Source: Eledone cirrhosa
Taxonomy: Eukaryota
Length of the DNA stretch: 64,000 bases
NCBI GenBank assembly: GCA_964016885.1
Contig: OZ024758.1
Span: forward strand, 20,522,001-20,586,000
Direction of reading: 5' to 3'
Each line of letters opens with the position of its first letter. Position 1 is the first letter of the stretch. The notes below the pieces were generated by a model. It saw only the letters and a program-made list of their open reading frames with translations, was not told the origin of the DNA and did no database searches. Both the position numbers and the translations under genes were made by a program. This document shows positions 13,850 to 56,873 of this stretch, one piece after another.

Positions 13850-14345
13850 TGTTATACTTTGGGAGGGTCATGTTGCCAATAAGAAACACACGCACCAGTT
13901 GCATTCACTTCAATTTATTATATATTTATAAATTTATAAGTTTATAAATCTATAAATTTCTGGTTGGTTGGTTGGTTCCACAACCAGATAGTTGTTTATA
14001 TATAGTCATAGTTCTTTCGTCACACACTCTGTGACCTCTTAAGTGACTGGGGATTCCTTTCTTTGCTTCTGTGCCTCCTCTTTGTTCTGTCCAACGCCAT
14101 TTTGTTTCTGTGCGTGTGTTGTGTGCTCAGTCTGCGCATGCCCCACATCCGGGTGAAGAGGTCACCGAGTGTGTGACGAAAGAACTATGACTATATATAA
14201 ACAACTATCGTGTTGTGGAACCAACCAACCAACCAGAAATTTATAAATTTATAAACTTATAAATTTATAAATATATAATAAATTGAAGTGATATATCTGG
14301 TGCGTGTGTTTCTTATTGGCAACATGACCCTCCCAAAGTATAGCA
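13850..14345. repeat. Family C fold-back, ~190-bp arms
   Basis: Arms 13850-14040 and 14156-14345. Left hammerhead 14004-14048 has core CTTAAGA; right arm starts inside the core (TGAAGAG). Confidence 0.9.
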
Positions 14346-17301: not shown

Positions 17302-17464
17302 AAAATAGATAGAACGCCGACGGCTGAGCTCCGGAGACAGACGACGGGGTCCTAATTATTTTCCAACTACCCTAAGTATCGATTACTCTGGTGCGTTATG
17401 GTCCATCCGGTTTCTTACCAAACTTTATTTTTGATATACATGGATTTTAGTCTTCAAATGTTTA

Positions 17465-17554
<90 letters not shown>

Positions 17555-18078
17555 TTGCGTTTATGTGTGTGTATGCGATATTAAAATAGTAAATTTAAGG
17601 AAATAAAATAAGAAATATTAAATCAGATTTGATGATATGTCACGGGCAATATTTCGCATTTCCTCTAATGTAACATGTTCCATAATATATCAGTCACGCA
17701 TGCATTAATGTGTTCATGGTTAAGAGCATATGCAGTTTGGTGGTTATTCATATCACGACAGATAAACAAGGTTGGCAAAGGCCTGGAAATGAAATACAAA
17801 CAATTTTAGTTTTATTAACGCGCTCAAAATATGATCTGAATATATAAGAGAAACTCTACAGACATTTATCAATCATATCGTTACCTAACCCATATTTATC
17901 AGAAAACACAATTTTATAACTATCCCTTAATTATCTTGGTACACATTCCTGAGTGGTGATTTCAAAGGATAATGTATTTATGTATATCTACATTACATTC
18001 GCACGCGTACTCGAATATGCTTGTATATGTAGATGTATATAAATAAATATGTTTATTTATATATATATATATATATAT

Positions 18079-18170
18079 AACGAAGGAATTGTGGTAAGGA
18101 GCAAGTATGACCCCGACGGCAGAGCTCAAGCTGTTTCGACTTCACCTATGTCGTCGGGGTCATACTTGTT

Positions 18171-18174
<4 letters not shown>
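18079..18174. repeat. Family D pLTR end with short fold-back
   Basis: Minus strand reads GAC ataggtgaa GTC-GAAACAGC-TTGAGCTCT-GCCGTC^GGGGTC; arms ~18098-18118 and 18154-18174. Confidence 0.8.
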
Positions 18175-18643: not shown

Positions 18644-18648
<5 letters not shown>

Positions 18649-18842
18649 AACCAGTAAGACCCCGACAGCTGAGCTCAAGCCGTTTCGACGGCTAATTCTG
18701 GACTCAGTCCAGAATTAGCCGTCGAAACGGCTTGAGCTCAGCTGTCGGCGTCTTACTGGTTCCTATTACCCACTCTACTACCTCAAGTATTGAGTACTTT
18801 GGTGCGTTATGGTCCACCTGGTTCCTTACCACATTTCCTTCG

Positions 18843-18846
<4 letters not shown>
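18644..18846. repeat. Family D pLTR end with near-perfect 61-bp-arm palindrome centred at 18705
   Basis: Each arm holds the hammerhead 3' half GAAACGGC-TTGAGCTCA-GCTGTC^GG(G/C)GTC. Confidence 0.88.
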
Positions 18847-20760: not shown

Positions 20761-20919
20761 TATATATACTTGTATGTGTGTGCACATGTGTATTCATATG
20801 ATATATATATATATATATATATATAGTAATAATAATAAATTTGAAGTCTAAAATCCAAAGAGGGCTCGATATGGATAAATATATATCAAATGTATAAGAA
20901 CCTTAGAGCAAATACTTTT

Positions 20920-22830: not shown

Positions 22831-22872
22831 TACATAAATCTTTCGTTGCACATCTGCAACATCGTCAGTGGT
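22831..22872 (-). ncRNA. Hammerhead family C in the 3' UTR of the GIY-YIG PLE
   Basis: acca-CTGACGA-t-gttgca gatg tgcaac-GAAAGATTTA^tg; stem II covaries with 48746-48788; stem I weak. Confidence 0.75.
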
Positions 22873-23140: not shown

Positions 23141-24235
23141 TTATACTTCTCTTAGGTCAGTGTTGTTTGTTTGGGTGTTGTTGTTGTTCCACTCATTCTT
23201 TCTGTTTAGCTTTGGTCTTCTAATTTCTATTTCACTGGCCTCTCTGATTTGCCTATCTGCTGGGTCATTCCTATATTTAGATATTATTCTAATTTCTATG
23301 TTGTCTATGTTACCGTCATGTTGTCTAGCATGTTCGTATAGTACTGACCCGTTTTTCGTCCTTTTAGTTCCCCCCAGTGTTGGTCTATCCTTTCACCTAT
23401 GCTACGAGCTGTCTCACCTATGTATGTTGTTGTCGTGTTTCTGCAAGTACCCTCTGTACATCTTATGCTATAGACTACGTTTCTAGTTTTACAGTTTATC
23501 CGGGGGTTCACCTTACATATGATACATTTCCTATTGGTACAGTGGGTTTTCTTAAAAGGGTAGGTTTTGCTGATCAGGGATTTTATGGTGGTTCCTGGCT
23601 TTTCTACCACCTTTATTTTTAAGTGGGTCTTTCTCAGGGCCTTTCTACACTGGTTAGCTAATTTCCCTCCAGGGGTGGCGTCCACAAACATGACACTCTG
23701 ATATCTCTGGTTGTCGTACCATGATGTGGCCTTCCCTATCTTATGTCTAGCCCTATCTAAGCTATTCCATGATTTGCTCCTGTATAGTGGGCAAATTCCT
23801 TTCATGTCCAGTTCTATGAGGGTCTTATACTTTTCCATGGCTCCTTCGTATACTCTGACTCTGTCTCTTTGGTTGTAGCCAGAGAACTGCATGCGGTTGA
23901 TGAAGTGTTGGATGTGTCCTTCCATTTCTGTTGGGTCGCACATGCTGGACACATTCTTCATCACTCGTACCAAATCTGCGATCAGAATATTAAACTTAGC
24001 ACTACTGGACATTGCTGAGTTTTTGAGTATCAGGTATTTGGAGGCCATGGGTTTAGCATAGTGTGAGTGGAGAATTTGGGCTCTCTCGTCTATAGTGTTA
24101 ATCCAGAGTTCTGTGTCTAATACAGGTAGTCTATTGTTAGGGTGTTTGGAAGGGAAGTCTATAGTTACAGTTATACTCTGGTGTATGGAATTAGCTATCT
24201 GCTGGATGCTTTCCATCGTGCTACGTTCTAAATTA

Positions 24236-24272: not shown

Positions 24273-24310
24273 GTATCTATATATATATATAAATATGTAT
24301 ACACACACAT

Positions 24311-24344
<34 letters not shown>

Positions 24345-24345
<1 letters not shown>

Positions 24346-25257
24346 ACGAACGGAATGTGGTAAGGAACCAGATGGACCATAACGCACCATAGTACTCAAT
24401 ACTTAGGGTAGTAGAGTGGGAAATAGGAACAAGTATGACATTCGCGGTCTAGGTTTTACTACTGATTCTCCCATATCGGAATTCGTTGGGTTTATAAGCC
24501 TGATGGATGGCTTACGCTAGAACTCGGATGTGTGGTCCTTCAGTGTGAAGTAAGGAGTCCGTGGGTCTAGTGGTTCAGTGCGGCTGGCGACCCCGAGGCT
24601 GGAGGTAATTTGTTGTCCATCTCGATGTATGTGCTCGATGCTTGAGTGGTTAGCCTTGTTGTAGGTGGAGTTTAGACTGCTCCTGATCAGTGTTTGGTAT
24701 CTGTCGGGCTTGACGAAGTAGAGGTTACCAGTTTTGTCCGATTGCACCATGATGTCGTTAATTTGCTACGGAGTTTTTGTAGTAATATGTTGTGTCTGGG
24801 TTTGAATTTAATGCTCTTGACAAGTTGGAATAGGTCATTCTCGAAGGGTGAGAGCATAGGGTTCGCAGGGGGAGAGTTGTAGGTATTAAATCCTAATCTC
24901 TCCTCGGTATCGAAGTCCCGATTTTCGCAATATCTGTCGTAGAAAAATAGTTCTCCATCTTAGTCTTTTCGCAATGAGGTCGATGTTTTGCCTGAGCCTC
25001 CGAAGGTAGAGTTTTCTCGGTGGGACTGGGATGTTCTTGGTGGAAAAGTCGATGTTGTGTTTTCGCATGGTGCAGGTGAAAGAACTTGAGCTTAGCGGAA
25101 AAGTCTGGATAAGGCGTGGTAGTGTCAGACAGTGCTCTACTACGGAAATAGGAGCTAGATAACGAAGGAAATGTGGTAAGGAGCCAGATGGACCATAACG
25201 CACCAAAGTACTCAATACTTAGGGTACTAGAGTGGGTAAAAGGAACAAGTATGTCCC
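24345..25257 (-). mobile_element. Internally deleted PLE (family D) bounded by ~95-bp direct repeats (pseudo-LTRs), carrying a degenerate ORF N-terminus
   Basis: Direct repeats 24345-24439 and 25161-25257. ACCATG at 25068 starts MRKHNIDFSTKNIPVP..KRLRWR; frameshifted pieces read FNTYNSPP..FENDL, SDKTGNLY and YFTLKDH..RLINPTNSDMG. Microsatellite on both sides. Confidence 0.8.
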
Positions 25258-25354
25258 TATATATATATAAATATATATCTATACATATATATATACTATC
25301 ATGATATGGAACAAGGGTGCAATGTTGCATCATACCATATTTAAAAACATATGA

Positions 25355-25437: not shown

Positions 25438-25588
25438 TTCAGTACATGAGTTCGTTTCCGATTCTACCATATATATTTATTCGATATATAATAGATCGGT
25501 TCTTATATATTTGATATATATTTATCCTTATCGAGCCTCTTTGGATTTTAGTCTTCAAATGTATTATTATTACTATATATATATACAT

Positions 25589-31377: not shown

Positions 31378-33210
31378 CCTTGAATCTCAGTCATTGATGT
31401 TGGTTAACTGGAAAGTCCGTTGGATTGAATATCAAGCCACTACCTGCAGCCTCAGATATTCAGGACGTATCGGAGGGTTCTTGCCGTTCCAAGCAAGCAT
31501 GCCTTTTGAAGCGTTCCAAAAAGCGTGAAGGGGCCGATTTTCTTTAACCATCCCTGGAAACCTTTGGAGATAGTCCCCAGTGCGCCTATGACAATCGGGA
31601 TCACTTTGACTTCATGGCAGTTCCAAATCCTTTTCACCTCCCACTTTAGGTCCTGGTATCGGTTAATTTTCTCCCTCTCCTTCTCTTGCACTCTCGTGTC
31701 GAACGGGCAGGCCACATCCACAATCAGGCACGATCTTTTTTCTTTGTCCACAACCACCAGGTCAGGTCTATTGTGTTCCAGTTTTTTGTCCGTCTGTATC
31801 CTAAAATCCCACAGCACCTTCACCTGACTGTTCTCCATCACCGCCTCTGGCCTATGCTCATACCATTTCTCAGAATGTGGTAGATTGTTTACTTTGCACA
31901 GGTTCCAGTGGATCACCCTGCCCATCACATCGTGTCTCCAGCCCTTATAGTGGGTCTGGGCTAGGTGTTTACACTCGGACACAATGTGAGCCACAGTCTC
32001 CTCTCTCTCTCCACAGATCCTGCACAGTGGGCTAGCCTCCTCCTTGTAGATATGGTGCTTCAACCACTTCGTTTTGAGGGCCTGCTCCTGCGCAGCCATT
32101 AGCATTCCTTCTGTAGCCTTTTTGAGGTCTCCTCTTCTCAACCAGTTCCATGTCTGTGGATCTCTAAATTCAGTTTTCTCAAAGAAGGTACTATGAAGGG
32201 ATTTTCCCTTAAGGCTGCTCTTCCTCCTTGATGTTATTTCCTCCTTGGATATCCCCTGGCCTACTGTCCCCTCCTTCAGTACAGCTCTGAGCATTGGCTC
32301 CTTACTATAGGTCACGTATTTGTATAGGTTGTTTTTCTCCATCTGAACACAGTCCTCTATGCTGATAAGACCTCTTCCACCCTCAGATCTCCTTAGGTAG
32401 AGTCTATCGACATCACTCCGCTTGTGGAACATGTTGTAGATAGTCAATAGCTTCCTAGTCTTCCTATCCATTTCTTTTTGTTCAGCAACATTCCATCTCA
32501 GAATTCCCGCACTGTACCTAATAATAGACACAGCTCGGGAATTTACTGCGCTTATGGCATTTCTGCTGTTCAGATGTGACTTCAATACGCTCCTTACTCT
32601 CCGAATGTATTCAGTTCTTAACAATTCCTTCATTTTTTTGTTCTTTATGCCATCAGCCTCCAGAACGCCCAAATACTTGTATCCTTCCTCAGAATCAATT
32701 TCCTTTATCATCTCACCTGTTGGTATCTGGATCCCGTTACTTCTGCTCAACCTACCCCTCCTCATCACAATGACTCCACATTTACCAATACCAAACTGCA
32801 TACATATATCACTGCTGAAAATACGGACAGTGTCAACAAGCACATCCAACTCCTTCTCACTTTTCCCGAAGAGCTTAAGATCGTCCATGAAGAGGAGGTG
32901 ATTGATGGTAAGCTCTCCCCTTCCCAACTTGTATCCTGCTCTCACTTTTCGCAGCATAATGGTCAAGGGCATCAGGGCAAGGACAAACAACAGAGGGGAC
33001 AGGCTATCTCCCTGGAAGATACCTCTCTTGATCTTCACGCTTCCCAAGGATACTCCAGTTGATGTCAACTCTGTCTCCCAGGACCCCATACTCCTGCCCA
33101 GCAACTGTCTGATGTTATCTGCCACCCTGAAGATCTCCAGGCTTTTGGTGATCCAGGAATGAGGCACCGTGTCAAATGCCTTTCTGTAGTCTATCCATCC
33201 CATGGCAAGA

Positions 33211-33253: not shown

Positions 33254-34335
33254 TATTATTATTATATATATATATATATGTCTGTTTATACATTTGCGTG
33301 TGTACGTGTATGTGTGTTTTTATACAGACATGCATACACGCATACATATACAGAGAGACATATTGGCATACATATACAGAGTGATGAACTGACAGACATT
33401 TTCAAGTACAATATTGCTGTATGTACTTCTGCAATTTCATGAGTGAAACCTGTAATTTTCCTGTATAGAAGTAGCATAAGTAGAGTTACCGAGAGATAGG
33501 TTTATCGTATCTGAATCTGATGTATAATTTCATTCTATTTCAACGCTAATTAATTTAAGCAAACTTGAAGTGGTATTCGATTTCCAGTTTGGCTAACGTC
33601 TACCTACCTCATTCATTGATCATTTTCAACTCATCAAATCGTTATCCGTCTATATACATCACAAATTTCGTACGAATTAACAATTGTAAAAACAGACAAA
33701 TTTCACCTCTTTATGATCAGTATATTAAAGTTACTTTGTCACTTGTTTGATATTCAGAAGAACTTCAATATTATATATTTTAAAATCCTGTTTCAAATAT
33801 ATATTATTTGATACAATTTGATCACACCCAAATGCGATGTAATTGCGGAATGAGCCAATCTCGGTTTAATTAATGTTGTACGATATGCGCCAACACCGGC
33901 ATGCACAGTTATTAAGGTATTCCTCGAAATCAGATTCTATTGGCTGAAATATGATTATCAATGTTGATGTATATATTCAATCAATATCATATTCTACAAA
34001 ATCATCAATATTATGAAAATTATATTTTACACTACAGACGCCTTCTTCATTTTCAGCAACATAACCACCAATTACAATCCTCCTTAGCAACGACGTCATC
34101 ATAATTTGCATCATTATCACATTTCATCATCATCTTCATAAGTATTAACATTATTTGTATCTATTTTGATGTCGTCAACCCCATACACATCAGTTCTGTC
34201 GCCATCATCGTCTTCATCATCATCAACGTCATAATCATACAATCTAAGGATGATTGTAGCCAAAATTTAATACTTTGGAAATTTTACATAAAAAAGAGGC
34301 CCTTGGAGTTTATATATATATATACAGCATATATA

Positions 34336-34520
34336 AAGAAGGAATTGTGGTAAGGAACCAGATGGACCCTATAACGCACAAGAACACTCAATACTTAGGG
34401 TAGTGGAGTGGGTAATAGGAAAAGGTAGGAACCAGACGGCAGAGCTCAAGCCGTTTCGACGTCCAGAAATAGCCGTCGAAACCGCTTGAGCTCTGCCGTC
34501 GGGGTAATACATTTTCCTAT
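34336..34520. repeat. Family D pLTR end with fold-back
   Basis: Arms ~34415-34461 and 34474-34520 around a hammerhead stem II remnant. Confidence 0.82.
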
Positions 34521-36952: not shown

Positions 36953-37259
36953 TAATATAGAGCAGTTTTATAAATAAATATTGACATACCATTAAAGAAT
37001 GAGACCATTACAGTTGCTCGCATTCTTTAAGGGTATGTCAATATTTAATTATAAAACTGCTCTATATTATATTTCATCTCATGAAAGCACACCATAATTT
37101 AACTTGGTGTCCTTGAAATATGTATACTGAAATAAATATGGTTTTATAAATATAGTTTCCATTTGTTAATATCGTTTTTACTCCAAATATTTGTTGAGTG
37201 CTTTATATCAGTTATAAAAATATTTGCTTGTTGTATCCCAACAATGTAAATAGAACTTC

Positions 37260-39260: not shown

Positions 39261-39559
39261 TGGTAGTTACCTCAATTCCGGTTTCTATTTATTTTCTTGA
39301 TTTTTCTCTTAAATGGAGACAGGCAAACCTTATTGTCTATAGTTAGTATTCTTTTCACCTTAGCGAATCTGGTCCCTTGCGATTTGAACACATATATGTA
39401 TATATCTGTGTTCGTTTTTCTTTCATATTCAATTATTATATATGTATGTATATATTTGTGTTTGTAATGGAAGCTATGGATTAGGGTCCATAGCCTCCAT
39501 ATCTGACCTCGTAAAACACGGAGATACAGCAAACAATAGAATGTATGTGTCTGCATGTA

Positions 39560-39759
39560 NNNNNNNNNNNNNNNNNNNNNNNNNNNNNNNNNNNNNNNNN
39601 NNNNNNNNNNNNNNNNNNNNNNNNNNNNNNNNNNNNNNNNNNNNNNNNNNNNNNNNNNNNNNNNNNNNNNNNNNNNNNNNNNNNNNNNNNNNNNNNNNNN
39701 NNNNNNNNNNNNNNNNNNNNNNNNNNNNNNNNNNNNNNNNNNNNNNNNNNNNNNNNNNN
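39560..39759. other. Assembly gap (200 N)
   Basis: Run of N. Confidence 1.
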
Positions 39760-40637
39760 CATGTGAGCTGCATTACGTTGAGTACTCTCCATAATATTAG
39801 ATCGAGATTGACCATACGGAATGACCAATTCTATCCAATTGTGAACCAACAAACCTAAATAACATATATATATAAATATATATACGTTGTAGCCATGCAT
39901 GAGTATTAGCAGTAGTAGCTGATAACACCTTAGTATTACCATTTCAAAATAATTGCTTCACGTACTACCCCTATGTCCATCTGATTTTAAAATGCAATGA
40001 TCGGTCGTAACGTTTTTGAAATATTTTTCCTCGCTTAAAGATAATCCCACTTAGAGAAAGCAAGATACTTTGCTTAAAATTAATCACTACTAATATTTAA
40101 TATCCTTACTACAGGTTCTGATACGAATGAAATCTTATAATCAACTACAACAATATAAACTACCCTATAAATACCATTAAGTGAAAGCTACATTGACCAA
40201 AATAATACATAGATAAGAAGTATGGAATTTAAAATTCAGTTGTATATACAATTATATAACAATTGCAAACATGTACAAAAAAATACATAATGCACAGACC
40301 TTAATTAGGATGGAGTAAATGAAAACGGGTTCGTATACGATATTTTACTAAGGAGTAAAACCTGCTATATACATACACGCATGATGCATGTATCATTTTC
40401 TCATATACTTCAATCTATATTTCAATTATAGAGTAAAGAAGTGTTAAGTATTAAATCTATCAATAATTTCATAATTCTGTGCTTCATTGGCCAGCACCAG
40501 ATTGTTACTTAGCAACAGAAATAAAGCTTGTCCTGTGTTTCGGAATAAATAGTTACCAAGGAGCTCAGATTATGTTGCCTATCAATGACATGCAGTATAT
40601 GATACTGACTCATCGTTGGCGGATGCAAATGATCGGT

Positions 40638-47990: not shown

Positions 47991-48557
47991 AAACACAGAG
48001 GGAGAGAAAGACATCCATGATGGGGATGTACACAAATCTATACGCACACGCACACAACAAACATCACATATATGTTATAGATATATACACACACGCAGAT
48101 GAAGCTAAATACTTTGTTAAGTATGATATATCCAGTTTCACTATTCTCGCAATATCAGTTTCAATTTTCTGCATAACGTCCCTGAGGGGAAAAACTATTT
48201 AGAAACGTTTAATGTGATTTACATAAGTAAATTAAAATGATCTCAACCAATTAAAACTGATTATAATATGAAGCCAATCCTATGATTTTCCATAACCAGT
48301 AGATACATTATCAAATATGGTGTTCTCTGCTTTAGTGTCCAAAATTTTACATATTACATAAAAGCATTAACATGAATTTTTTCCCATGTTTTACAAAAGG
48401 AATTGACTCACAATTGTGCGACCCCACCCCCACCCACCCCCTATATACTATATATATATATATATAACGAAGGTGTTGTGGCAAGGAACCATATGGACCA
48501 TAACGCACCAGAATCCAGAAATAGCCTTCAAAACGGCTTGAGCTCTACCGTCGGGGT

Positions 48558-48592
<35 letters not shown>

Positions 48593-55048: not shown

Positions 55049-55543
55049 CTGTATATATATGATCATATATATTCATTCTTATTTAGGCTAAAGGCGTGTC
55101 TTGTTACTCGGGTGGTGTGCTTGTTAATCATAAATATACTCCAGAGTAACAAGACTCGAATTTTAGCATTAGTAATATTGAATATTAATCTCTACCTCGG
55201 TATTAAGTACTTCTTAATATATATATATATGTGTGTGTGTGCGTGTGTGTGTGTATGTGGTGTGTGTGGATGTGCTTGTGTGTAAGTATATGTGTGTGAG
55301 TGTGTGTGCATATGTGTACTTAATATATGTTACATTCCGGTGTTCTATCAGGACAATATCTCAACAACATTTTTTTTTTAAATAGAATTAAATGACGTTG
55401 TCTAATATTCTCTATGGAGCTTTCTATTTATTAAGAAAAATATACATTTTTTATTATAGTATATAATATTATTATATCGTGTCTTATACGTGTTCTTTTC
55501 TTTTATTTTACAGAAAGTGCCTGTCGCTAAGGTTGTTAATCGG

Positions 55544-56766
55544 ATGCGTGTTCCCATGACGACGAAAGCTTTTGAAGTGCTATTATGGCTACAAACTGGC
55601 CTCGTTCTAGCCGTGGCGGTTGTGCTGCGGGTAACGTCGGCCGAGTGCAAATTCCCCAGTTTCATGCACACGGAGCAGAATGCTTGGGTAAGAGGTTACG
55701 AAAAAGGTGACCGATTTGTGGCGTACTTTCAAGATGGTATTATGAAAGCCAGTAGTTGTCGAGATCGACAATGTACTCGATACGAAAGAAAATGCATAGA
55801 AGAATTACCTAACGGTAAATTCATAGCGTCACATATAGAGCAGCCTCATTCGACCAGTTATGTTTGTATGGAATTCCTGCGTCGAGGGGAAATCATTGTT
55901 CAGCTAAAACAATCAGGAATATCTAAAAAGAATTATCCAGAAATTTGTAATAATTTAAGTTTAGACATGTGGCCATTAGTACTGCTAGAAAAACTTCTTG
56001 AGCACAAAGTTAGCTGCCCATTCTCAGGGGGTTACAATTTACAAATGTTTGATAGCAGTGGGTCTGCGCTATGCCGTGAAGAAATAGTTCCTATTAGGCT
56101 GGAAAGTGAGTGTGAATCAGGAGAAGGTATGATGATTCACTTTAGAACTGAGGCTTGTATACATAAAGATTTAAATATGGAAGTAAAACAAAAGTTATAC
56201 TGTCTTGCTCATTGGAATGAAGGCCCTTTCAGATTTATCATTCTTCGAGAAAAAAATCGACGAAGTAACATCTGGTCGCTTCGTGTAAAAGAGCCTGTTA
56301 ATGAAATTAAATCTGCAGCTTTATTCATGGTGCCTGTCTGCGACACTGGGGAAAAAATTACAGAAACAGAAATGTATCTTCAATTGAAACTTGATAAATA
56401 TGTGGTGTCAACAACCTGTGCCGACGAGTTCAAAGATTGCGCTCATTTTGTGCAGTTCTGTGATTCAGGCTATCGCCAACATTGCTCAAATTCATGTAGA
56501 GACTGTCGCCAAGACGTTATTAAACTATGTCCGTTTTCTGAGCGCTTGCGTAGCACATGGGTGCAAAGTATGAAAAAAAATAAACAGCTCGCCGTAAATA
56601 TTTCACATTACCAAATATCTATTCAAACTCTTGGGATGTTTCACTGTTTGGTAGCTAAAGGTAAAAGTACACCAGGTAGCGATGTTCTACTACAATTGTT
56701 TCAAAATGGATGTTACCCAAGGTACACATGTCTCCAAATTGAGAAAACAGCACCGTCAGTTATAAG
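55544..56766 (+). CDS. Coding exon of a Cys-rich secreted/extracellular protein (signal peptide, repeated CxF modules, ShK-like module); gene continues downstream
   Basis: ~408 open codons of non-repetitive sequence. Acceptor ttttcttttattttacag|A at 55513/55514; ATGs at 55544 and 55556; hydrophobic signal LLWLQTGLVLAVAVVLRVTSA-EC. Modules CKFPSF..W, CPFSGGYNL..LYCLAHWNEG and CPFSERLRSTW recall invertebrate DUF7042/7043/7044-type proteins (recalled, not searched). Six-Cys CADEFKDC..C..C..C..C at 56417-56506. Donor AG|GTAAAT at 56766/56767 (phase 2), so the TAA is intronic. Confidence 0.88.
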
Positions 56767-56873
56767 GTAAATATATATTTCTATTTCCAATATAATATTG
56801 AAAAGAGAAATTGATAAGAATCGTTATATGCATATTACTACCAATATCACCAATTCTGTTCATTGTTGTAGAT

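What the first reader, a model, noticed from the sequence alone, without database searches (positions are those of the whole stretch)
24345..25257. Retrozyme-like mini-PLE whose 5' end matches the hammerhead cleavage site
Seen: other family D copies give GAAACGGC-TTGAGCTCT-GCCGTC^GGGGTCATAC. This element begins (minus, 25257) GGGACATAC directly after (TA)n, within 1 nt of the predicted cut. It runs through a leader to ACCATG (25068) and ~630 nt of degenerate PLE ORF, then rejoins the same leader ~3 nt past the cut site (24439) and ends at the family 3' terminus. Inference: the template was a self-cleaved RNA copied more than once around (circle or template jump), a genomic record of in vivo cleavage and a possible PLE-to-retrozyme intermediate.
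Basis: partly seen in the sequence, partly recalled or inferred. Interest (0 to 1): 0.8.

Follow-up and report, generated by a model that had tools for sequence, protein, structure and literature searches.

The report
Gutted Penelope retroelement lacking its ribozyme
This is one dead, internally deleted copy of a very abundant Penelope-type jumping gene whose two breakpoints happen to fall a few bases after the predicted ribozyme cutting site, which may record RNA self-cleavage but is at least as well explained by the family's ordinary mirror-image ends, and it is not a retrozyme because it carries no ribozyme.

Summary
The anatomy is real: (TA)n, a 190-nt leader, ATG at 25068, about 210 of ~715 codons of a Hydra-clade Penelope-like ORF (RWR, DKT motifs), a junction at 24439/24440, a second leader copy ending at the family 3' end, (TA)n. 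The reading as a retrozyme fails: the 816-nt unit holds no hammerhead, is not tandem and is not seen amplified. The 'start at the cut' is ambiguous: the first six bases match the forward sequence (+2..+7) and the family's inverted-arm terminus equally (5 of 6 each), and 5 of 8 other window copies begin with that arm. In two read sets 8,353 and 9,362 listed reads run through the predicted cut, against a depth of about 55 and 49 over the TA flank: no pile-up is visible. The hammerhead itself is only half seen (no CUGANGA in any window copy). What survives: both forward-strand boundaries (+4 and +2 to +8) lie just after the cut, which none of 8 other copies shows, so copying of a cleaved RNA fragment with one template jump stays possible (0.3). 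No genome was held, so junction uniqueness is untested. Interest 0.3.

The parts
25258..25300 (.). TA-rich flank on the 5' side (target microsatellite)
25252..25257 (-). First six bases: either forward leader +2..+7 with one change, or a 6-nt stub of the family's inverted arm with one change; pairs with 25246-25241 as a 4-nt-loop hairpin
25159..25251 (-). First leader copy, +8 to +100 after the predicted cut (pLTR 3' part and tail)
25069..25158 (-). Rest of the 5' UTR, present only in ORF-bearing copies (read depth 27-52 in bins 25072-25135 against over 10,000 on the leader)
24440..25068 (-). Degenerate N-terminal ~210 codons of a Hydra-clade PLE ORF (KNIP, RWR, DKT, LKDH motifs; frameshifts and a stop); RT core, thumb and endonuclease missing
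   Evidence: motifs defined in PMC8557442
24439..24440 (-). Junction ORF to leader +4; no hammerhead sequence present
24343..24439 (-). Second leader copy, +4 to +100, ending at the family's main 3' terminus
24300..24342 (.). (TA)n/(TG)n flank on the 3' side
18647..18846 (+). Reference family copy: palindromic, inverted arm ending at +17 and forward arm ending at +100, both holding the hammerhead 3' half
34333..34517 (-). Second palindromic family copy with the hammerhead 3' half
18077..18172 (-). Short family copy with a 20-nt inverted arm and an internal deletion

Best explanation
A single, inert, internally deleted insertion of a Hydra-clade Penelope-like retrotransposon, made in trans or in cis by the ordinary target-primed route into (TA)n. 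Shown: the family has two fixed ends joined to TA, at +100 (long arm) and +17 (inverted arm), and most copies are head-to-head palindromes that read through the predicted cut. Inferred: the long cDNA was primed at +100, lost about 1.5 kb of ORF plus the 3' UTR and ribozyme by a template switch at the 3' edge of the structured ribozyme (or by a later DNA deletion), and was closed on the left by a 6-nt stub primed at +17 on the other target strand. Because the reverse complement of +12..+17 falls in register with +2..+7, such a stub mimics a start one base after the cut. No self-cleavage is needed.
For: First six bases match arm and forward reading equally, 5 of 6, and fold back on +12..+17; the arm reading puts the TA junction exactly where the family has it, the forward reading is one base off. 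5 of 8 other window copies begin (TA)n-GGAA. Indels listed for other copies' reads at 25247-25255 (table 4), applied to the window sequence, give short palindromic ends in at least 3 of 5 combinations tried, so short arms recur (substitutions in those reads were not listed and the pairing of indel rows was my choice from matching counts). 8,353 (X4) and 9,362 (X5) listed loose-end reads continue through the cut against depth 55 and 49 over the TA flank. 13 of 13 arms of three other hammerhead families in the window span their cut sites. Inverted pLTRs, a one-sided tail and microhomology-deleted derivatives are described for PLEs (PMC3846280; PMC8557442); in the anole element uncleaved RNA is the dominant substrate and no reads began or ended at the cut (PMC11167929).
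Against: It does not explain for free why both forward boundaries (+4, and +6 to +8) sit within 8 nt of the predicted cut, when 0 of 8 other window copies have a boundary there (nearest +13 by BLAST for a well-aligned copy; two diverged copies scored +11 and +31 by BLAST but still carry the GGGGTC by eye). No microhomology at the internal junction could be shown because the intact ORF sequence beyond it was not obtained. The family's stem III is long (5 bp) compared with 2-4 bp in the published Hydra motifs, so the ribozyme could be more active than those tested. Read-through of the cut is also what a re-ligated circle would give.
Confidence: 0.55

Rival explanations
1. The template was a linear RNA whose 5' end had been made by hammerhead cleavage and whose 3' end was a break at about ORF nt 630. 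Reverse transcription began at +100, ran off near +4, jumped to that 3' end, and ran off again near +2 to +8.
For: Both forward boundaries lie within 8 nt after the predicted cut; none of 8 other window copies shows this; one cause explains both. The two leaders are as alike (88 of 95) as one event followed by decay would give. Run-off with loss of a few bases is plausible by analogy with other target-primed retroelements (my knowledge, not tested).
Against: Neither boundary is at +1. The left end is equally an arm stub. No pile-up among the reads shown: about 0.5-0.7% over the TA flank relative to listed read-through reads. The leaders are nearly as close to an unrelated copy (87 and 86 of 95), so they need not come from one molecule. 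The hammerhead's 5' core was not seen.
Confidence: 0.3
2. The RNA's 5' end lies here for another reason, such as a transcription start inside the pLTR, and both boundaries are run-off points at that start.
For: PLE transcripts start inside the upstream pLTR (review PMC6765202, passage). It would also explain two similar boundaries.
Against: Needs the start to coincide with the predicted cut within a few bases; nothing in the sequence points to it.
Confidence: 0.07
3. Two separate insertions (a 5' fragment of an ORF-bearing copy and a solo short copy) fused by DNA deletion, or an assembly join between repeats.
For: Short copies are dense (8 others in 64 kb) and several carry internal deletions. 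No listed contig or read piece bridges 24439/24440 (16 pieces shown, 22,744 not shown).
Against: Both leaders are of the same majority subtype and similarly diverged (3 and 4 private differences of 95, read); the junction lies in non-repetitive sequence on the ORF side.
Confidence: 0.05
4. An 816-nt ribozyme-made RNA circle, a PLE-to-retrozyme intermediate that is copied by rolling reverse transcription.
For: Terminal redundancy of about 97 nt; circles were proposed as PLE templates (PMC4209133) and animal retrozymes are argued to derive from pLTRs (bioRxiv 10.64898/2026.07.22.740005).
Against: No hammerhead in the unit or across its junction; 1.1 units only; ORF-derived body; ORF depth is hundreds of times below the leader and the longest contig pieces differ by 14-29 letters in 115-174 nt, so no young sister copies are seen.
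Confidence: 0.03

Closest known systems
Hydra clade of C-terminal endonuclease Penelope-like elements (Craig et al. 2021, PMC8557442; e.g. [quoted passage not shown]
   Same: ORF starts with the KNIP region, RW(K/R) and DKT motifs, no N-terminal endonuclease; (TA)n target; predicted hammerhead a short way upstream of the 3' end (100 nt here).
   Different: This copy keeps only ~210 codons and has lost RT core, endonuclease, 3' UTR and ribozyme; the family's stem III (5 bp, 9-nt palindromic loop) is longer than the 2-4 bp stems in the published Hydra table, and its 5' core was not seen.
Internally deleted Penelope derivatives with inverted pLTRs and tail (Arkhipova et al. 2013, PMC3846280)
   Same: Direct terminal repeats round a deleted ORF, head-to-head inverted arm, tail on one side only.
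   Different: The arm here is at most 6 nt and both leader copies lack the part upstream of the predicted cut.
Anole Poseidon PAc (Frangieh et al. 2024, PMC11167929)
   Same: Two internal reverse-transcription start sites downstream of the hammerhead that define the tail; here +17 and +100.
   Different: Different clade; tail about 83 nt; starts lie in the 5' UTR rather than in the ORF; not tested biochemically here.
Non-LTR retrozymes (Cervera and de la Pena 2020, PMC7229834; bioRxiv 10.64898/2026.07.22.740005)
   Same: Non-autonomous, terminally redundant, related to a pLTR.
   Different: No hammerhead, 816 nt rather than 150-450 nt, not tandem, body is ORF-derived, no sign of amplification.

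Membership tests
Hydra-clade PLE | RWK-type motif near the N terminus, DKG changed to DKT | tested here: met
   RLRWR and SDKTGN in the translation; definition
Hydra-clade PLE | No N-terminal endonuclease or CxC motif; ORF begins at the KNIP region | tested here: met
   ATG at 25068 aligns to residue 1 of four full-length relatives
Hydra-clade PLE | C-terminal GIY-YIG endonuclease with CxCX5C linker | tested here: inconclusive
   Deleted in this copy; a CNC..C linker is present in 10 of 20 hits of 400 aa or more, which are only 27-46% identical relatives
Hydra-clade PLE | Insertion into (TA)n | tested here: met
   653 and 717 reads with TA at the +100 end mapped at 25159
Hydra-clade PLE | Canonical hammerhead in the pLTR | tested here: inconclusive
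   3' half present in family copies and reads; CUGANGA not found in 8 of 8 window copies; no Rfam match
Hydra-clade PLE | Placement in the RT tree | not tested
   RT core is missing from this copy; likeness to Hydra-1_Obim judged by eye from the supplement
Non-LTR retrozyme | Type I hammerhead in every unit | tested here: not met
   No core in 24343-25257; junction lacks the motif
Non-LTR retrozyme | Tandem repeats of 150-450 nt, at least two units | tested here: not met
   One 816-nt unit plus 97 nt; definition
Non-LTR retrozyme | Many genomic copies of the unit | tested here: inconclusive
   No close sister copies in the laid runs, but the junction was not bridged by any listed piece and no genome was held
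Non-LTR retrozyme | Expressed as circular RNA | not testable with these tools
   Needs RNA data or bench work

The most novel reading that the evidence does not exclude
The element is a genomic fossil of a hammerhead-cleaved PLE RNA: cDNA primed at +100 ran off the cleaved 5' end twice, with one jump to a broken 3' end between. A small class of such copies (about 1% or less of the family, including the short-armed palindromes seen in reads) would then be the first in vivo record of PLE ribozyme cleavage, readable from the genome alone in a family with very many copies.
Probability: 0.3. Interest if true: 0.6.

Novelty: new member of a known kind. Interest (0 to 1): 0.3.

Why it matters
What PLE hammerheads do in vivo is open: the 2014 discovery paper says in vivo evidence is absent and the 2024 anole study found no reads at the cut and no need for cleavage in vitro. 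My searches listed no paper that maps genomic PLE 5' ends to the cut, but they cover open-licence papers only. One ambiguous copy does not settle it, but this high-copy family makes the boundary histogram a cheap and powerful test, provided arm stubs are separated from true forward starts.

Tried and rejected
No whole genome is held, so the genome-wide junction search and histogram could not be run. Run search: 3 small-share contig sets of one sample and 3 raw DNA runs added by species label; no RNA holder listed; 4 of the 6 runs were laid. Motif scans: 0 matches in viral contigs; 93 loci in metagenome contigs, none a family member (best alignments 24-35 nt, median GC 69%). Word-indexed protein search found nothing; the exhaustive search found 264 relatives. 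No Hydra-type locus with DNA in viral or prokaryotic contigs. Pfam gave no meaningful match for 4 window pieces and 5 relatives. Rfam over the window listed only simple-repeat hairpin matches among the 150 of 223 shown. My first guess of a Naiad element was dropped after the motif definitions. A decayed hammerhead end hidden in the bases before 24439 was considered and rejected by eye (three to four changes needed in five bases); a second arm remnant there (3 of 4 bases) is too weak to use. In one search about a hundred family-B hits were dropped as matches to (TA)n arrays, and one hit at the window edge that ends before the cut; the 13 arms counted include the three query arms. No earlier findings on this genome or sequence.

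Full report
What is there. On the minus strand the element runs (TA)n, leader 25257-25069, ATG 25068, ORF fragment to 24440, second leader 24439-24343, (TA)n. The leaders match over 98 nt at 91.8% and are 816 nt apart. The ORF is broken by frameshifts and a stop. An 82-residue piece found 264 relatives at E up to 0.001, best 46% identical; full-length ones are about 713-723 aa and align from residue 1 to about 205, so RT core and endonuclease are gone. RWR and DKT motifs, no N-terminal endonuclease and the (TA)n target fit the Hydra clade as defined in PMC8557442. Two of five relatives looked up carry a name, both from Argonauta hians; at about 40% identity this does not identify the host.

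The family. Eight other copies lie in the window. Six are head-to-head palindromes; the long arm ends at +100 after the predicted cut and the inverted arm at about +17, each where the element reads TA. Five of the eight begin (TA)n-GGAA. This is the described PLE pattern of an inverted copy and a one-sided tail (PMC8557442; PMC3846280), and two internal priming sites were shown in vitro for the anole element (PMC11167929). In laid reads the leader is at depth over 10,000 while most ORF bins are at 13-60, up to about 360 in two stretches where many molecules begin or end; reduced-representation reads are an uneven sample, so this is only a rough ratio.

Is there a hammerhead? The 3' half (GAAA, 5-bp stem, palindromic loop, GUC, then GGGG) is the family norm: 5,860 and 6,216 reads show it beyond 24439 at about 0.9 agreement, and a second subtype keeps the same core with other flanks (2,493 and 2,728 reads at 24429). 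Such a half-motif arose in 17 of 5000 shuffles and lies where Hydra hammerheads lie. But no copy in the window reaches a CUGANGA, loose ends were printed to 30 letters only, and Rfam found no hammerhead. The cut site is therefore likely, not shown.

The 5' end. They are equally the reverse complement of +12..+17 with one change (5 of 6 each), and fold as a 6-bp hairpin. The arm reading gives the exact TA junction used by five other copies; the forward reading is one base late. Reads of other copies that align into the TA flank carry small indels (table 4); applied to the window sequence, at least three of the five combinations look like short palindromes rather than forward starts (substitutions not listed, pairing of rows inferred). 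On the arm reading the forward strand starts at +6 to +8.

The pile-up test. Listed loose-end reads that run on through the cut number 8,353 in X4 and 9,362 in X5; depth over the TA flank at 25264-25270 is about 55 and 49, about 0.5-0.7%, and these are heterogeneous. 768 weaker loose-end rows were not shown, X4 and X5 were added by species label, and X1 and X2 are one sample. In the window 0 of 8 other copies have a forward boundary at +1..+8, and 13 of 13 arms of three other hammerhead families span their cuts (simple-repeat hits dropped). So cleavage does not set most 5' ends. This does not exclude re-ligated templates, nor a rare cleaved class.

The internal junction. It joins ORF codon ~210 to leader +4 and holds no ribozyme sequence. 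A circle made by two hammerhead cuts would carry the whole motif across its junction, so the unit is not a retrozyme (definitions in PMC7229834, and the bioRxiv preprint). No listed piece bridges the junction and alignments of other copies stop near 24476 at a small indel, so uniqueness and microhomology are untested. The longest ORF-covering contig pieces differ from this copy by 14-29 letters in 115-174 nt, and the leaders are hardly closer to each other (88 of 95) than to an unrelated copy (87, 86 of 95): an oldish, lone copy.

Weighing. Against my reading stands one real coincidence: both forward boundaries fall in the 8 nt after the predicted cut. A cleaved linear template explains both at once; an uncleaved template needs a pause at the 3' edge of stem I or a chance deletion for one, and an arm stub for the other. 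The prior is lowered by the anole result (uncleaved RNA dominant, no reads at the cut), by the missing pile-up, and by the half-seen ribozyme; it is raised by the long stem III. I put the ordinary reading at 0.55, cleaved fragment with a jump at 0.30, other 5'-end cause 0.07, fusion or assembly 0.05, retrozyme circle 0.03. These are judgements, not computed values.

Papers seen. PMC8557442: passages, supplement searches and parts 2, 52, 53 of 59. PMC11167929: parts 1-2 of 4; its supplementary figures on read ends were not seen. PMC4209133: parts 1-2 of 4. bioRxiv 10.64898/2026.07.22.740005: parts 1 and 3 of 5; its supplements were not seen and may list ORF-bearing intermediates. PMC3846280, PMC6765202: passages. 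PMC7229834: passages and section 13. The labels Neptune-like and RTE-like below are from my own knowledge, from no call.

Noticed in passing
window 36944(-), 62034(+), 61877(-), 26609(-), 13268(-), with inverted partner 37035-37175(+): Another PLE-end family with a complete type I hammerhead-like motif (long stem II, 3-bp stem III), in palindromic two-arm insertions.
   Followed up: partly
window 48784(-) with 13901-14291; 63637(-) with 804-993 and 2471-2598; 36181(-); 22868(-): Four further complete hammerhead-like motifs of different PLE-end families; the window holds at least six ribozyme-bearing families.
   Followed up: partly
window 23305-24235 (-): 3' part of a second PLE ORF (Neptune-like by recall, with CxxC linker and a GIY-YIG-like stretch) directly downstream of the element across a microsatellite, with its own hammerhead-like motif at 22868.
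   Followed up: no
family copies 18647-18846, 34333-34517, 18077-18172, 48464-48562: Every window copy of this family stops or folds back just upstream of GAAAC, before any CUGANGA, whereas the other families' arms include the whole motif; arm-specific variants are mirrored in both arms of the 18647 copy. Suggests a strong fold-back point at stem II.
   Followed up: partly
window 25498-25580, 20819-20902, 17441-17475: Another short repeat end next to (TA)n, just upstream of the element.
   Followed up: no
window 31452-33200 (-): Long reverse transcriptase ORF of a non-LTR element (RTE-like by recall), 5'-truncated.
   Followed up: no
window 55460-56770 (+): 436-codon open frame, cysteine-rich, looks like a host exon with a signal peptide.
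   Followed up: no
window about 39500-39790: Assembly gap of N's.
   Followed up: no
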